From: Escherichia coli
GTDB lineage: Bacteria; Pseudomonadota; Gammaproteobacteria; Enterobacterales; Enterobacteriaceae
Assembly: GCF_048403405.1 (NCBI RefSeq)
Contig: NZ_CP183129.1
Length of the DNA: 64,000 nucleotides
Direction: 5' to 3' (one strand)
This document shows, piece after piece, positions 15,001-21,000 of the stretch; position 1 is the first letter of the stretch, and every line of letters starts with the position of its first letter. Made by a program: the position numbers.

Positions 15001-18000
15001 ATTATGTGAAGTATCATATCTGCCAAGAACTGTTGGTATTTCAACGACAGAACTAATTTCTCAAATCAAAAGATATGGTTAATTTTGGAGAGGGATTTTG
15101 AAATTTCATTCAGAGATAAAAAACTCTATAAAAAATGCGAAGAAATTCAAAGGTATTTTATTTGTTAATATAATATCTTATCTGCTGCTAACAATTGCGA
15201 TAAGAAAAGGTCATTCGAAAGAGATTTTAAAATTTAAGTGGTTGATTTTACTTTTTGGCGGGAGTGTCGCTAAATATTTTGTTGCTAGGGCTTCATTTCT
15301 TAATGGTGATTATATATTTGCTAAGAAATTATATCAAGAGATAATTAAGGTAAACCCAATACATACTGATAGCTATTATGGGTTGGCTGATGTTTATAGA
15401 CTAACCGGAAATAAATTAGAAGCGAAGGATGTACTCATTCAAGTTTTTAATTTTTCTGATCGTTTGAAAACTTGGCTATTATTGGCGAACTTGGTTGATA
15501 CAAAAAAAGATTATGATGAATTATTGAATCATTGGGAAAGGGAATGTTCTTATAGGAATATACTTAAGTATCATTATGATGTGAACGATTACCTTATAAT
15601 TGCTGCGTTAAGGGCTAAACTATATGAAGAAGCATTAAATCGGGTTAAAGTATTGTTGGGAAGTATAAATTCTGAGGCTTTTATCTTACCAAAAACTAGC
15701 AATAAAAACTTTTCTGTTAATGCTGCTAAAATTGCATTATTAGGTCTAAAAAAAATATTGGATGCTAATAAAATACAGTTTTTTTTAGTTAGCGGAACAT
15801 TACTTGGTTGTATTCGTGATAAAAAATTACTAAAACATGACAAAGATATTGATATAGGAGTATGGAGCGAAACAAATCTATCCGTATTATCAACGAAAAT
15901 TGCTTGCTCTGGCTTGTTTGATATTGCACCTATGCGCTCACCGTATACGTTGAGAATAAAACATGTTAATGGTGTGGCAATCGACATATTTTTTCATTAT
16001 CGAGATCATGACAGCTATTGGCATGCGGGTTCAAAGCTGAGATGGAACAATACTCCATTTAATTTGATTTCTTATGGTTTTCTTGGGAACGTGTTTTTAA
16101 TACCAGAAAATTATGATTTATATTTGACTGAGAATTATGGAAACTGGATGCAAGAAAAAATGAAATTTGACTCTGCATTCGATACACCCAATCATGAAAT
16201 AGTTAATATGTATGAATTAAAAATACACGCGTATAAAAAGCTAATAATAAACATGAAAATTGGTAGTGTTGAAGGCGTTAGATATTATGAAGATAAATTA
16301 AATGAACTTGGGTGTATTATATCTAAGCCTTGAGGTCTATATAACTGAATATATTAAATATTAAAAAATAATCATGGGGACATAGTATGTTGTTAACTAA
16401 GTTAGCTAAAAAAATATGCCAATCCAAAGAATATATTAACGGAATTTCTCTATACAAAAAAAAAGAATGGGAGAAGGCATTATTGTTCTTTGAGAAATCA
16501 ATCATAAAAAAAACAAAACATGCGGAGAGCTATTTTAAAGCAGGAATATGCAATCTTAAATTGCATAGATATGAAGAGGCATTTAAATATATAAGTAAAG
16601 CATTAGAATTGGAACCCTCAAATATACAGTGGAAAGAACAACTCGAACAGTGTGCAAGGCATCTTGATAAGTTAAATAATCATATGGTGAGCAAATCATC
16701 TACTGAAGAAGATTTATTAAGGGAAAAACTTAATACAGACTTTAATAATCCAAAATTACACGATAGACTTGCTGAGGTTCTTCATAAAAAAGGGCGTTGG
16801 TGGCAGGAAGTTGATACGCTGAAAAACGCAATAAAATTAGATCCTTCAATACCTGAACGTTATTTCAAACTTGGCACCGCATTAGAAAAGATGGGGCGTT
16901 TTAATGAGGCTAGTATATATTATAAAAAAGGACTTGAATTTAATAAAAAACATGATGCTATTTGGTATTATGCACTCGGATATTCGCTTGAATCTGATGA
17001 AACAAACAATGTAGAAAATGTCCGTAGTTCTAAAATAGCATATGCGACAGCTATATCGTTAGACAAAAAATTAAATAGTAATAAATTTGGAATAGGAGCA
17101 TTTCATCAATATAAGGGACGCTGGGCTAAGGCTATTGATGCGTATGAAAAACATACATCCATAAATCCATTATGTGCAGAGCTATATTATAGGCTCGGAT
17201 TATCTTATGATAGATGTTATCAATGGGATAAAGCCGCAGAGAATTATCGCAAGGCATTATCACTCGATGAAAATCATCCTTATTGGCATTATAGGCTAGG
17301 GTTTGTTTTAGAGAGAAGTCAAAAGTATCTTGATGCTGCTGTTGCTTATCAATTTGCAGCACAAAGCAATATCAAACATATCTCGATTTGGTACTATAGA
17401 TCTGGGTACGCATATGCTAAGGCTAATAAATACAGGCAATCCTGTGAAATGTATATAAAAGCATATGACTCTTCTCAGGAAATTTATGCATCACAAATAA
17501 AAGTTATTGATAACAATGATACCCATTTAAACTCTTACAGAAAAAAACTTAAATATGAAAGCAGGATTAATACTTTAGAGTCAGCAATTTCTAATTCATG
17601 CATAAATTATGGATTATGGTATGAATTAGGTAAAACATATGAATCTTCATGTAATTGGAATGATGCTGTCATTGCATATCATGAAGGTATTATGAGAAAC
17701 AATACATATACCAAAGACTATTATTATAGAATCGGATATTCATTATTCCGCGATGGGAATTATCAACAGGCATGTAATTTTTTTCGTAAAATAGAGATTT
17801 TTGGAACACCGTATGGGGCTCCTGATGATATTCTAACAAAAAATTTAACTTTTAGGAGGAATGCTACATACACTGAATTTTATGAAACATTATCAATTGA
17901 AAAAAACACTATACTTTATGAAAGCTTTCATGGTGCAAGTATTTCTTGTAACCCATATGCATTATTTTTAGATATTATTGATGATCAACGATTTGATAAT

Positions 18001-21000
18001 TTCAGACATATTTGGGTTATCAATAATGAAAAAAAAATCCCTGAGCAGCTAAAAAATAAAAAAAATGTATATTTTGTTTCAAGGCAAAGTGATTTATACA
18101 TGCAATGTTTGGCATCATGTGAATTTTTGATAAATAATGTTAGTTTTCCTGAGTATTTTATAAGAAAGAAAGGGCAGCGATATTTAAATACTTGGCATGG
18201 AACTCCTATAAAATTTCTTGGAAAAGATATTAAAGATGAATTTTTAGCACATAAAAATGTGGCTAGAAATTTCCTTCACACAACACATTTACTTAGTCCT
18301 AATACACACACAACTAATATTTTATTAGATAGGTATGATATATCTAATATATTTAGTGGGGAAATTAAAGAGTTAGGTTATCCTCGCATTGACCGGACTA
18401 TTAATCTTAGCTCTGAACGGAAGGAATATATACGTAGGAAAATTAATGCGAACGTTTACGATAAAGTAGTCTTGTATGCTCCAACTTGGAGAGGAATACA
18501 TGGAAAGGCAACTTTAGATATAGAAAAACTAAAGAACGATCTTGAAAAGTTGGCTGACCAGGATTGTCATATCGTTTTCCGTGGTCATCATATGATCGAA
18601 AAATTAGTAAGTGAGCAGAATATTTCTGGTATAACAATTGTTCCTTCTGAGATTGACACGAATGAGTTACTAGGGGCGATTGATATTCTTATCACAGATT
18701 ATTCAAGTATTGCTTTCGATTTTTTTGTAATGAATAGACCAGTAATTTACTATGCGTATGATATTGAGCAATATAATAATGAGAGAGGGTTGTATTTTCC
18801 TCTAAATGAATTACCTGGAACCGTTTGTTTTAATGATGTAGAGTTACTTAACACGTTAAGTGGATATCTTCGTAATGAAATATATTTCGATGCATCTAAA
18901 GGTATTGATAAGTTTTGTAAAAATGATGATGGAAGTGTATGTGGAAAAGTAATTGAATGGTTCTTCTTTGAAGAAAAATCCATATTGCTTAATAAAAACA
19001 AAAATAAAAATATACTTTTTTATATTGGTCCATTTATTCCAAATGGTATATTGTCATCATGGCTAAATCTTATATCGGTAATTGATCGTGATAAATATAA
19101 TATTTCTTTGGTTGTTGACCCAAAATTAATTCATGGTTTTCAAGAACGGTTCGAGCAGTTTAAGAGAGTCTCTCCAGATATTCAAGTCATTGGAACTTGT
19201 GGAAACATGCTTTATAATATTGAAGAGAAATGGCTTAATGATAAATTAAATAATCAATTCACCCTGGCAAGTAAGGAAATGTATGATATTCTTGATCATG
19301 CTTACCAACGAGAGTTTTTAAGGCTCTTTGGCTATAGTCATATTGATCATCTAATCCATTTTGAAGGTTATAATCAATCTTGGGTTATCCGGTTTGCTAA
19401 TGCTCCGAAAGATACAGTTAGAAATAAAATAATATTTCAACATAATGATAAGTTGAGCGAGTGGAGAGAAAGATTTCCATATCTTAGAGTTGTTTTTGAT
19501 TTTTATAAATCTTACAATAAAATTGTTTCTGTTTCTGAAAAAACGATGGAGTTGAACAGAGATAACTTAAGCGAATTTTTTAATATTGAGCATGATAAGT
19601 TTATTTATTGTGATAATGTTCAGAATCCAGATGAGGTGATTAAAAAATCTGATGATATTGATACAAGTGGATTTATTTTTGAAAATGATAAAATCTACTT
19701 TATAACTTTGGGCAGACTTTCAGTCGAAAAAGATCAACAAAAGTTGATTAATGCCTTTTGCAGATTACAAAAATTATATCCTAATATTGAGTTATTAATT
19801 CTTGGAGACGGCCCCCTCAAGATTGATTTACAACGCCAGATTATAACTTTAGGACTTGAAAAATCCGTACATCTTCTGGGACGCATATCAAATCCTTTTC
19901 CACTGCTAAAGAGAGCTGACTGTTTTGTCCTCTCTTCAAATCATGAAGGGCAACCTATGGTTCTTTTCGAAGCAATGATTCTAGATAAACCTATAATATC
20001 AACTGACATTACTGGTTCTAGAAGTGCTCTTGAAGGGCGTTCTGGTGTATTAGTTGAAAATAGTGTAGACGGTCTCTTCAACGGAATGCGGGACTTTATC
20101 TTGGGAAGGTTGGAGTTTAAACATTTTGACATTGAATCTTATCAAAAAAATGCTTTGTCGATGTTTTATGAAAAATGCCTTCATTAAAGCATTAATCTAT
20201 ATCATGATCGTCAAGAACCATTGATTGATTTGTAAGGAGGTATACCTCCTTACAAATTAAAGTAAATTTAGTTAAGTTAATAAATAATTATGAATAAGAC
20301 AGTTTTACATATTAACAGTAATATAACCACAGATGAAATTAGTTTATTGTTGCAGGCATCCAAGTATAAATATATTCATTTTGAAATAATTGGGAAAGGT
20401 GATTCATGTAAAAATTTAATTGAGTTTTCATATCATGATTATAATAAAAAAAAACAATTAATTGCTTTAACTAATGCTGGTTTTATGTCGTACGTTCATC
20501 GTGGAAATGTAACTTCATTGGTTCACTTTGATGAGATAAAAAACCTCTGGATTCCAGTAAAAGAAAAAAAGTTTTCTATTAATTCTGATGGGATTGTATA
20601 TACGTTACAACGGGCTGCATGCAAAATAAATGAAAAGCTACTGATTGTTTTCTCTCAGATGCCAATTGAACCATATTCTGCAAGCTTGTACAGATATTTT
20701 GCAAAAAACTTTTCTACAATTGATAAATATATTGGAAAAAATGTTTCTATATTAAGAGTGGCTGATATCGGAGGAATTACTGGCTCATTTTACTTAAATA
20801 CAAATGCATTACCAACCAATGCTGATAAAATTAAAAGCCTTATATTAGAAGTTATTGAACAATGTCAAATAAAATCAGATGATGTCGTACTTTATGGATG
20901 CTCAAAAGGAGGTACGGCAGCCGTTTATCATGGATTAACTAATAATTATAAAATAGTAGCGGTGGATCCTATATTAAATGATGAACATTATATAAATAAT

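What the first reader, a model, noticed from the sequence alone, without database searches (positions are those of the whole stretch)
16387..20187. 1266-aa three-domain putative polymerase (TPR + TagF-like + GT4)
A single protein combines about 470 aa of TPR-like repeats, a CDP-glycerol glycerophosphotransferase domain (LYAPTWRG) and a GT4 glycosyltransferase (EX7E). This architecture matches the recently described family of multi-domain capsule polymerases that make teichoic-acid-like polymers in Gram-negatives.
Basis: partly seen in the sequence, partly recalled or inferred. Interest (0 to 1): 0.65.

Follow-up and report, generated by a model that had tools for sequence, protein, structure and literature searches.

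The report
E. coli K2 capsule polymerase gene

Summary
Bases 16387-20187 (+) are one uninterrupted 1266-aa ORF with N-terminal TPR repeats, a CDP-glycerol glycerophosphotransferase (TagF-like, PF04464) domain and a C-terminal GT4 domain.

The stretch 12000-23000, which contains region 2, matches E. coli CFT073, ATCC 25922 and other K2 strains at about 100% (5 substitutions from CFT073). The ORF sits in region 2 of a group 2 kps capsule locus. Its best solved relative is Cps3D, the TagF-like capsule polymerase of Actinobacillus pleuropneumoniae serotype 3 (PDB 8qoy, E = 1e-249). All 11 named CgoT residues and all 4 named CgaT residues of Cps3D are conserved.

The 2018 paper that defined this polymerase family already lists E. 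coli K2. Novelty is therefore "already known", and interest is low.

Small additions from this work:
- The TPR domain has 20 helices, like monomeric Cps7D, rather than 15 as in dimeric Cps3D.
- The K2 locus has CpsB, CpsC and CpsD homologues, but no CpsA-type priming transferase anywhere in the window.
- The last region 2 gene (331 aa, unannotated) is predicted to be a beta-propeller homologous to phage tail-spike domains.
- Natural alleles split the polymerase gene at homopolymer tracts or by IS1 insertion.

The enzyme from E. coli itself has not been assayed in any paper I could find.

The parts
16387..20187 (+). K2 capsule polymerase ORF, 1266 aa (CpsD/Cps3D homologue; WP_000927647.1, C_RS17515 in CFT073)
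16426..16689 (+). N-terminal four-helix bundle (aa 14-75) plus a long connecting helix (aa 80-101)
   Evidence: AF2 model of aa 1-520. It matches the alpha4HB/alphaL elements described for Cps3D.
16705..17787 (+). TPR domain, aa 107-467, with 20 helices (15 + 5)
   Evidence: Pfam TPR hits. Helices were counted by me from the secondary-structure list. aa 296-354 and 407-470 both align to Cps3D 287-344.
17824..18957 (+). CgoT: TagF-like glycerol-3-phosphate transferase domain, aa ~480-857. Key residues: WHG H604, R667, LYAPTWRG 696-703, R732, H734, S773/S774, D778.
   Evidence: residue list.
19003..20172 (+). CgaT: GT-B/GT4 retaining glycosyltransferase domain, aa ~873-1262. Key residues: R1110, K1115, E1187-x7-E1195.
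   Evidence: residue list.
13191..13198 (+). ops element GGCGGTAG, 33 nt upstream of kpsM. It is the RfaH-dependent antitermination site for the region 3 to region 2 transcript.
   Evidence: for the sequence. An 8-mer alone is not significant (2 matches against 1.26 expected). Its position and role come from established knowledge of group 2 kps loci.
13231..14675 (+). kpsM (13231-14007) and kpsT (14004-14675), the ABC exporter (region 3)
14687..15082 (+). Glycerol-3-phosphate cytidylyltransferase (CpsB/TagD-like), which makes CDP-glycerol. RefSeq mislabels it 'pantoate--beta-alanine ligase'.
   Evidence: TIGR01518, E = 2.7e-37. 49% identity to B. trehalosi CpsB.
15098..16333 (+). 411-aa TPR + LicD-family protein, a CpsC homologue (poly-Gro3P linker polymerase)
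   Evidence: 39% identity over 328 aa to B. trehalosi CpsC, E = 1e-77. Function.
20290..21318 (+). 342-aa XcbB/CpsF-family protein, the probable O-acetyltransferase (K2ab modification)
   Evidence: NF033892, E = 2.6e-89. PDB 9hvz, whose molecule names include 'bacterial protein _ ACoA', E = 4e-53, and a weak SacC hit. K2a/K2ab acetyltransferase note.
21324..22319 (+). 331-aa unannotated protein, predicted beta-propeller related to phage tail-spike domains. Its role in the K2 pathway is unknown.
22481..30431 (-). Region 1, kpsS-C-U-D-E-F: poly-Kdo glycolipid synthesis and export

Best explanation
The ORF encodes the capsule polymerase of the E. coli K2 (group 2, ABC-transporter-dependent) capsule. 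It is a single polypeptide with two catalytic domains that work in alternation.

- The TagF-like domain (CgoT) transfers sn-glycerol-3-phosphate from CDP-glycerol onto a galactose hydroxyl. H604 acts as the base and H734 contacts the pyrophosphate.
- The GT4 domain (CgaT) transfers alpha-galactose from UDP-Gal onto the glycerol, with retention. It uses R1110, K1115 and the E1187-x7-E1195 motif.
- The product is poly(galactosyl-glycerol-phosphate).
- The N-terminal TPR domain confers processivity and lets the enzyme start on a poly(glycerol-phosphate) linker. That linker is made by the neighbouring CpsC-like LicD enzyme on the KpsS/KpsC poly-Kdo glycolipid.
- CDP-glycerol comes from the adjacent cytidylyltransferase. 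The finished chain is O-acetylated by the XcbB/CpsF protein and exported by KpsMT/KpsED.

Shown here: the domains, the residues, the synteny and the identity to K2 strains. Inferred by homology to Cps3D/Cps7D and from the published K2 chemistry: the activities, donors, linkages and the TPR role.
For: - One intact ORF.
- Pfam PF04464 at E = 2e-77, PF00534 at E = 4e-26, and TPR hits.
- PDB 8qoy Cps3D at E = 1e-249, matching along the whole length. Identity is about 45% in each catalytic domain.
- All 11 CgoT residues and all 4 CgaT residues named for Cps3D are conserved. The TagF H444/H584 equivalents align.
- The gene is in region 2 of a kps locus that is about 100% identical to CFT073 (K2) and other K2 strains.
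- The 2018 family paper lists E. coli K2.
- A 1992 paper's title equates the K62 (K2ab) capsular antigen with those of A. pleuropneumoniae serotype 9 and meningococcal serogroup H. Serogroup H shares the serotype 3 (Cps3D) backbone.
- Deleting the region 2 operon abolishes the K2 capsule.
- CpsB, CpsC and CpsD homologues are collinear with the B. trehalosi cluster.
- The same five-gene cassette surrounds a 71%-identical homologue in another kps locus.
Against: - No paper I could search reports an assay of the E. coli enzyme itself.
- Donor sugar and linkage positions are inferred. At 45% identity to Cps3D, they cannot be read from sequence alone.
- From memory, and not checkable here: the 1980-82 structural work on K2 reported both galactopyranose and galactofuranose units. 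One GT4 domain, and a locus without a UDP-galactopyranose mutase, do not obviously explain that.
- The CpsA-type primer transferase used in the Actinobacillus system is absent from the window, so the initiation step may differ.
Confidence: 0.93

Rival explanations
1. The protein is a poly(glycerol-phosphate) polymerase like TagF. Its GT4 domain only decorates the chain with side-branch sugar and does not build sugar into the backbone.
For: The TagF-like domain aligns to the true poly-GroP polymerase TagF at E = 1e-39. GT4 relatives such as TarM are side-chain glycosylases of teichoic acid.
Against: The much closer relative Cps3D (E = 1e-249) alternates the two activities to make an in-chain Gal-Gro-P backbone. 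The published K2 backbone has galactose in the chain. A separate LicD-type poly-GroP polymerase homologue is already encoded next door.
Confidence: 0.03
2. The enzyme has the same fold and mechanism but a different substrate. The GT4 domain might use another UDP-hexose or also accept UDP-galactofuranose. Alternatively, the linkage positions may differ from those of Cps3D.
For: Identity to Cps3D is only about 45% in each catalytic domain. Cps3D and Cps7D share the architecture but make different linkages. They are also reported to be flexible toward acceptors. Galf in the K2 polymer is recalled from older literature, from memory.
Against: The title of Beynon et al. 1992, seen in a reference list, equates the K62 (K2ab) antigen with those of A. 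pleuropneumoniae serotype 9 and meningococcal serogroup H. Serogroup H has the same backbone as serotype 3. No UDP-galactopyranose mutase gene is in region 2.
Confidence: 0.1
3. The ORF is non-functional, or is really two genes (a TPR protein plus a transferase), in this strain.
For: Split versions exist in other strains. T7 to T8 at 17778 in MS 69-1 gives 468-aa and 811-aa ORFs. A9 to A8 at 18029 gives 554-aa and 695-aa ORFs in a cluster of 658 sequences. There is an IS1 insertion in isolate AF4.
Against: In this window the frame is open end to end, with T7 and A9 tracts. The full-length form is the commonest, with 2997 member sequences, and is the one in capsulate CFT073. Every catalytic residue is intact.
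Confidence: 0.02

Closest known systems
Cps3D, TagF-like capsule polymerase of Actinobacillus pleuropneumoniae serotype 3 (PDB 8qoy; Litschko et al. 2024, PMC11666461)
   Same: It has the same domain order: four-helix bundle, TPR, CgoT, CgaT. All named active-site residues are conserved. The expected product backbone is the same, 4)-alpha-Gal-(1-2)-Gro-(3-P. Both lie in region 2 of a group 2 capsule locus beside CpsB and CpsC homologues.
   Different: Identity is about 45% in the catalytic domains. The K2 enzyme is 128 aa longer: its TPR has 20 helices against 15, and Cps3D's last five helices are represented twice. No CpsA gene accompanies it.
Cps7D of A. pleuropneumoniae serotype 7 (1277 aa, monomeric)
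   Same: Its length is similar. It has an extended 20-helix TPR in which helices 16-20 correspond to helices 11-15 of Cps3D (compared). By the paper's argument, this predicts a monomer for the K2 enzyme too.
   Different: Cps7D makes 3)-alpha-Gal-(1-1)-Gro-(3-P, which is not the K2 backbone. I had no Cps7D sequence to align directly.
TagF (S. epidermidis, PDB 3l7i) and TarF/TarL wall-teichoic-acid enzymes
   Same: Same Pfam family (PF04464), same CDP-glycerol donor and same His pair (H444/H584 correspond to H604/H734).
   Different: TagF is a Gram-positive enzyme that makes a poly(GroP) homopolymer. It has no fused GT4 or TPR domain, and its acceptor is glycerol rather than galactose.
Bcs3, H. 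influenzae type b capsule polymerase (PMC10299916)
   Same: It is also a multi-enzyme group 2 capsule polymerase with a TagF-like polyol-phosphate transferase domain.
   Different: Bcs3 has SH3b, ribofuranosyltransferase and phosphatase modules, has no TPR and uses CDP-ribitol.

Membership tests
TagF-like capsule polymerases, TagF-like/GT-B architecture (Litschko 2018) | Encoded in the serotype-specific region of a group 2 (ABC-transporter-dependent) capsule gene cluster | tested here: met
   The ORF lies between kpsMT (13231-14675) and kpsSCUDEF (22481-30431, minus strand), in a stretch of about 31% G+C.
TagF-like capsule polymerases, TagF-like/GT-B architecture (Litschko 2018) | One unusually long ORF (>2,500 bp) | tested here: met
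   3801 bp with no internal stop.
TagF-like capsule polymerases, TagF-like/GT-B architecture (Litschko 2018) | TagF-like domain with the conserved active-site motifs, including the two catalytic histidines | tested here: met
   PF04464 at E = 2.4e-77. F514, WHG-H604, G605, T606, P607, R667, A698, R732, H734, S773, S774 and D778 are all conserved against Cps3D. H604 and H734 align to TagF H444 and H584. I checked the residues named in the 2024 paper, not the 2018 paper's five motifs by name.
TagF-like capsule polymerases, TagF-like/GT-B architecture (Litschko 2018) | GT-B (GT4, retaining) glycosyltransferase domain C-terminal to the TagF-like domain, with R/K phosphate ligands and EX7E | tested here: met
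   PF00534 at E = 3.9e-26. R1110, K1115, E1187 and E1195 align to Cps3D R982, K987, E1059 and E1067.
TagF-like capsule polymerases, TagF-like/GT-B architecture (Litschko 2018) | TPR-rich domain (present in most members) | tested here: met
   Pfam TPR hits. The AF2 model has mean pLDDT 86 and 20 antiparallel helices.
TagF-like capsule polymerases, TagF-like/GT-B architecture (Litschko 2018) | Alternating polyol-phosphate and hexose transfer that yields a poly(glycosylglycerol phosphate) | not testable with these tools
   This needs enzyme assays. It is supported only indirectly, by homology and by the published K2 chemistry.
CpsA/CpsC-primed capsule systems (Litschko 2024) | A CpsC homologue (TPR + LicD poly-Gro3P polymerase) in the locus | tested here: met
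   The 411-aa ORF at 15098-16333 has a LicD hit and is 39% identical to B. trehalosi CpsC, E = 1e-77.
CpsA/CpsC-primed capsule systems (Litschko 2024) | A CpsA homologue (stand-alone PF04464 Gro3P transferase that primes poly-Kdo) in the locus | tested here: not met
   BLASTP of B. trehalosi CpsA against all five region 2 proteins, and tblastn against the whole 64-kb window, find only the polymerase's own CgoT domain (E = 3e-5). The one E. coli-labelled CpsA homologue among the 120 of 206 hits listed is a cluster of 2 member sequences in a different K-type locus. The rest of the genome of the source strain was not searched.

The most novel reading that the evidence does not exclude
The K2 system may initiate its polymer differently from the Actinobacillus model. 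It keeps CpsB, CpsC and CpsD homologues but has no CpsA-type primer transferase in the locus. Instead it carries a conserved 331-aa beta-propeller protein whose only relatives are receptor-binding or depolymerase domains of phage tail spikes, from E. coli Kayfunavirus and from Staphylococcus phages that target teichoic acid.

Either that propeller, or the polymerase or CpsC-like enzyme itself, would then link poly-Kdo to the chain. Alternatively the propeller could trim or measure the chain. Any of these would be a step not yet described for group 2 capsules.
Probability: 0.2. Interest if true: 0.5.

Novelty: already known. Interest (0 to 1): 0.15.

Why it matters
K2 is a common capsule of extraintestinal pathogenic E. 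coli (CFT073, ATCC 25922, some ST131). In CFT073, deleting region 2 cuts serum survival from about 85-90% to 4%. The polymerase is therefore a reasonable drug target and a possible tool for enzymatic synthesis of vaccine antigen.

None of that is new, however. The family, its structure and its mechanism are published, and K2 is named as a member. What this analysis adds is modest:
- a residue-level confirmation for the E. coli enzyme;
- a prediction that it is monomeric, like Cps7D;
- the observation that the K2 locus lacks CpsA and instead has a phage-tail-spike-like propeller gene of unknown role.

Tried and rejected
I ran it in two pieces instead.
- The full-length homologue search was dominated by TPR word matches and did not return Cps3D. 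Repeating it with the catalytic half gave 2952 relatives, but Cps3D was still not among the top 120. Cps3D residues were therefore read from the PDB alignments.
- I tested whether the 331-aa or the 342-aa neighbour is the missing CpsA. Both are rejected. The 342-aa protein is an XcbB/CpsF family member whose solved relative 9hvz is deposited under a name containing 'ACoA'. The 331-aa protein is an all-beta propeller, not a GT-B fold. Neither has BLAST similarity to CpsA.
- NCBIfam found essentially nothing in the large relatives of the 331-aa protein (one sub-threshold hit in one of ten). PHROGs showed that they are tail spikes or fibres.
- The contig look-up for P0134 failed, so I used B. trehalosi P0153 instead.
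- A 61-nt query meant to count A9/A8 alleles in complete genomes gave no match, probably because of the low-complexity filter. The 101-nt query at the T7 tract cannot separate a single-base indel from identity. Allele frequencies therefore remain rough.
- The 1980 K2 structure paper and the EcoSal capsule review are not held. The Galf point therefore rests on memory.
- The K2 rows of the supplementary tables of the 2026 kTYPr paper could not be retrieved.
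Full report
**Observation.** Bases 16387-20187 on the + strand form a single ORF of 1266 codons. It starts at ATG, with an in-frame stop 15 nt upstream and a GGGGA Shine-Dalgarno-like motif before the start. There is no internal stop. Pfam finds TPR repeats between residues 19 and 470 and Glyphos_transf (PF04464) at 502-857, E = 2.4e-77. It finds Glycos_transf_1/Glyco_trans_1_4 at about 1099-1240, E = 3.9e-26.

**Where it is.** The gene lies in a block of about 31% G+C inside a window of about 50-58% G+C. Upstream on the same strand are kpsM and kpsT. Downstream on the opposite strand are kpsS, C, U, D, E and F. This is the classical layout of an E. coli group 2 capsule locus, with the finding in serotype-specific region 2.

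Window 12000-23000 matches 140 complete E. coli genomes over at least 80% of its length. These include CFT073 (5 substitutions), ATCC 25922 and a strain labelled O2:K2:H1. In CFT073 the ORF is C_RS17515, WP_000927647.1, annotated as 'CDP-glycerol glycerophosphotransferase family protein'. An exact copy heads a protein cluster of 2997 member sequences. An ops element (GGCGGTAG) sits 33 nt before kpsM. That position fits the known RfaH-dependent read-through from region 3 into region 2, which is established knowledge. The 8-mer on its own is not statistically significant.

**What it is.** The best match among solved structures is 8qoy, 'TagF-like capsule polymerase Cps3D' of Actinobacillus pleuropneumoniae serotype 3, at E = 1.1e-249 over the whole length. 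TagF follows at E = 2.5e-39, and TarM-type GT4 enzymes match the C-terminus.

The Cps3D paper (PMC11666461) names the active-site residues. After correcting the +3 offset of the PDB chain, all of them are conserved:
- CgoT: F391, H479, G480, T481, P482, R542, A573, R607, H609, S647, S648 and D652 correspond to F514, H604, G605, T606, P607, R667, A698, R732, H734, S773, S774 and D778.
- CgaT: R982, K987, E1059 and E1067 correspond to R1110, K1115, E1187 and E1195.
- H604 and H734 also align with TagF H444 and H584.

Identity to Cps3D is 45% in CgoT and 46% in CgaT. Identity to the Bibersteinia trehalosi homologue is 45% end to end.

**How it most likely works.** This part is inferred by homology to Cps3D and Cps7D.
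- CgaT transfers alpha-galactose from UDP-Gal to the glycerol at the chain end.
- CgoT transfers glycerol-3-phosphate from CDP-glycerol to the galactose.
- The two steps alternate processively.
- The TPR domain is needed for processivity and for using a poly(Gro3P) linker as primer.

The neighbouring genes fit this scheme:
- ORF 14687-15082 is a glycerol-3-phosphate cytidylyltransferase (TIGR01518, E = 3e-37; 49% identical to CpsB).
- ORF 15098-16333 is a TPR + LicD protein, 39% identical to CpsC, the poly-Gro3P polymerase.
- ORF 20290-21318 is an XcbB/CpsF protein. Its solved relative 9hvz carries the molecule name 'bacterial protein _ ACoA', which I read as an acetyl-CoA complex. It is therefore the likely O-acetyltransferase that distinguishes K2ab from K2a.

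Deleting the whole region 2 operon in CFT073 removes the K2 capsule and lowers serum survival from about 85-90% to 4%.

The product chemistry comes from the literature. E. coli K2 is listed among the glycerol-phosphate capsules. A 1992 paper's title equates the K62 (K2ab) capsular antigen with those of A. pleuropneumoniae serotype 9 and meningococcal serogroup H. Serogroup H shares its backbone with serotype 3, the Cps3D product.

**Comparison with what is known.** Litschko et al. 2018 defined the family. They state that they identified the putative polymerases in the clusters of the listed strains, E. coli K2 included, by their long ORFs and TagF-like domains. All family features that can be tested in silico are met (see the membership table). 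The architecture is also very widespread. 2952 relatives of the catalytic half score E <= 1e-30, from Gammaproteobacteria and Betaproteobacteria through to Arthrobacter. The finding is therefore correct but already known. I found no paper that assays the E. coli enzyme itself.

**What differs from the solved relative.** HMMER aligns query 11-354 to Cps3D 11-344, and query 407-1262 to Cps3D 287-1137. The last TPR helices of Cps3D are thus represented twice in the K2 protein. The two copies are detectably similar to each other.

An AlphaFold model of residues 1-520 was built from 26 sequences and has mean pLDDT 86. It shows a four-helix bundle, a long helix and then, by my count from the listed elements, 20 TPR helices arranged as 15 + 5. 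That is the arrangement the 2024 paper describes for Cps7D. The paper gives it as the reason Cps7D is a monomer while Cps3D, with 15 helices, is a dimer. I therefore predict a monomeric K2 enzyme. This is an inference and was not tested. The family consensus also carries the extended TPR, so Cps3D is the unusual member.

**A gap in the pathway.** In Actinobacillus, CpsA is a stand-alone PF04464 enzyme that puts the first Gro3P on poly-Kdo. The B. trehalosi cluster has CpsA-B-C-D. CpsA from that cluster finds nothing among the five K2 region 2 proteins, or in the six-frame translation of the whole window, apart from weak similarity to the polymerase's own CgoT domain. Among the 120 of 206 CpsA relatives listed, the one labelled E. 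coli is a cluster of 2 member sequences, and it sits in a different K-type locus. Who primes the K2 chain is therefore open.

**The last gene of region 2.** ORF 21324-22319 (331 aa) has no Pfam, NCBIfam or PDB sequence match. Its model (pLDDT 86, pTM 0.85) is an all-beta propeller. The best structural matches are the receptor-binding proteins of S. aureus phages phi11, 80alpha and NF5 (TM-score normalised to the query 0.52-0.56, E = 2e-9 to 1e-7).

Most of its sequence relatives are 500-1400-aa proteins. Eight of the nine I scanned with PHROGs hit tail-spike or tail-fibre families. In those proteins the propeller lies next to tail-anchor or C-terminal tail-spike modules. In PHROG 22693 it follows a glycerophosphodiesterase domain. 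tblastn finds it in E. coli Kayfunavirus phages (37% identity), other E. coli, Salmonella and Erwinia phages, and Staphylococcus phages. The gene is kept in the same position in a related five-gene cassette from another organism. Its role is unknown. Candidates are polymer binding, chain trimming or priming.

**Natural disruptions.** The gene contains ten homopolymer runs of 7-9 bases.
- Strain MS 69-1 has T8 instead of T7 at 17778, at the TPR/CgoT boundary. This gives 468-aa and 811-aa ORFs.
- A protein cluster of 658 members comes from A8 instead of A9 at 18029.
- Isolate AF4 has an IS1 insertion.
- Two assemblies of NCTC86 disagree, one intact and one split, so some of these splits may be sequencing errors.

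In this window both tracts are in the open-frame state.

**Verdict.** Novelty is 'already known', and interest is low (0.15). The only mildly novel threads are the missing CpsA and the phage-like propeller gene. Both lie outside the finding's coordinates.

Noticed in passing
window 21324-22319 (+): The last region 2 gene (331 aa, annotated 'hypothetical') has no Pfam, NCBIfam or PDB sequence hit. It is confidently predicted to be a beta-propeller. Its relatives are central domains of phage tail spikes and fibres (E. coli Kayfunavirus at 37% identity, Staphylococcus phages, PHROG 22693). Its best structural matches are S. aureus phage phi11 and 80alpha receptor-binding proteins.
   Followed up: partly
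window 13000-23000 (whole K2 region 2): There is no CpsA-type (stand-alone PF04464) priming transferase in the locus or anywhere in the 64-kb window, although CpsB, CpsC and CpsD homologues are present. The one E. coli-labelled CpsA homologue among the listed hits is a two-member cluster in another K-type locus.
   Followed up: partly
window 17778-17784 (T7) and 18029-18037 (A9), inside the polymerase ORF: Other K2 strains carry +1 or -1 changes in these homopolymer tracts that split the polymerase gene. MS 69-1 has T8. A protein cluster of 658 members has A8. Isolate AF4 has an IS1 insertion instead. This could be phase variation, lineage-specific capsule loss or, in part, sequencing error, since two NCTC86 assemblies disagree.
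   Followed up: partly
window 14687-15082 (+): RefSeq names this gene 'pantoate--beta-alanine ligase' or 'FAD synthase family protein'. Its best family match is glycerol-3-phosphate cytidylyltransferase (TIGR01518, E = 3e-37, though below that model's curated cutoff), and it is 49% identical to CpsB. This looks like a misannotation.
   Followed up: yes
window 20446-20447, inside the XcbB/CpsF acetyltransferase gene 20290-21318: The window differs from CFT073 by AA versus TT here, and at three other single bases across 12000-23000. The acetyltransferase ORF is intact in the window, which by the 2026 kTYPr paper's criterion would fit K2ab rather than K2a.
   Followed up: no
window 8403-12057 and L001 28243-29001 (beyond kpsF): The capsule locus is flanked by decayed genes. 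On one side are a frameshifted IS4 transposase and truncated or frameshifted gspK/gspL. On the other are an IS110 fragment and a frameshifted AbiEii toxin gene. This is typical of the kps insertion site next to the gsp cluster.
   Followed up: no
window 30001-34000 and 54001-56000: Two further low-G+C stretches (0.40-0.44 against about 0.52-0.58 elsewhere) suggest additional horizontally acquired segments. I did not examine them.
   Followed up: no
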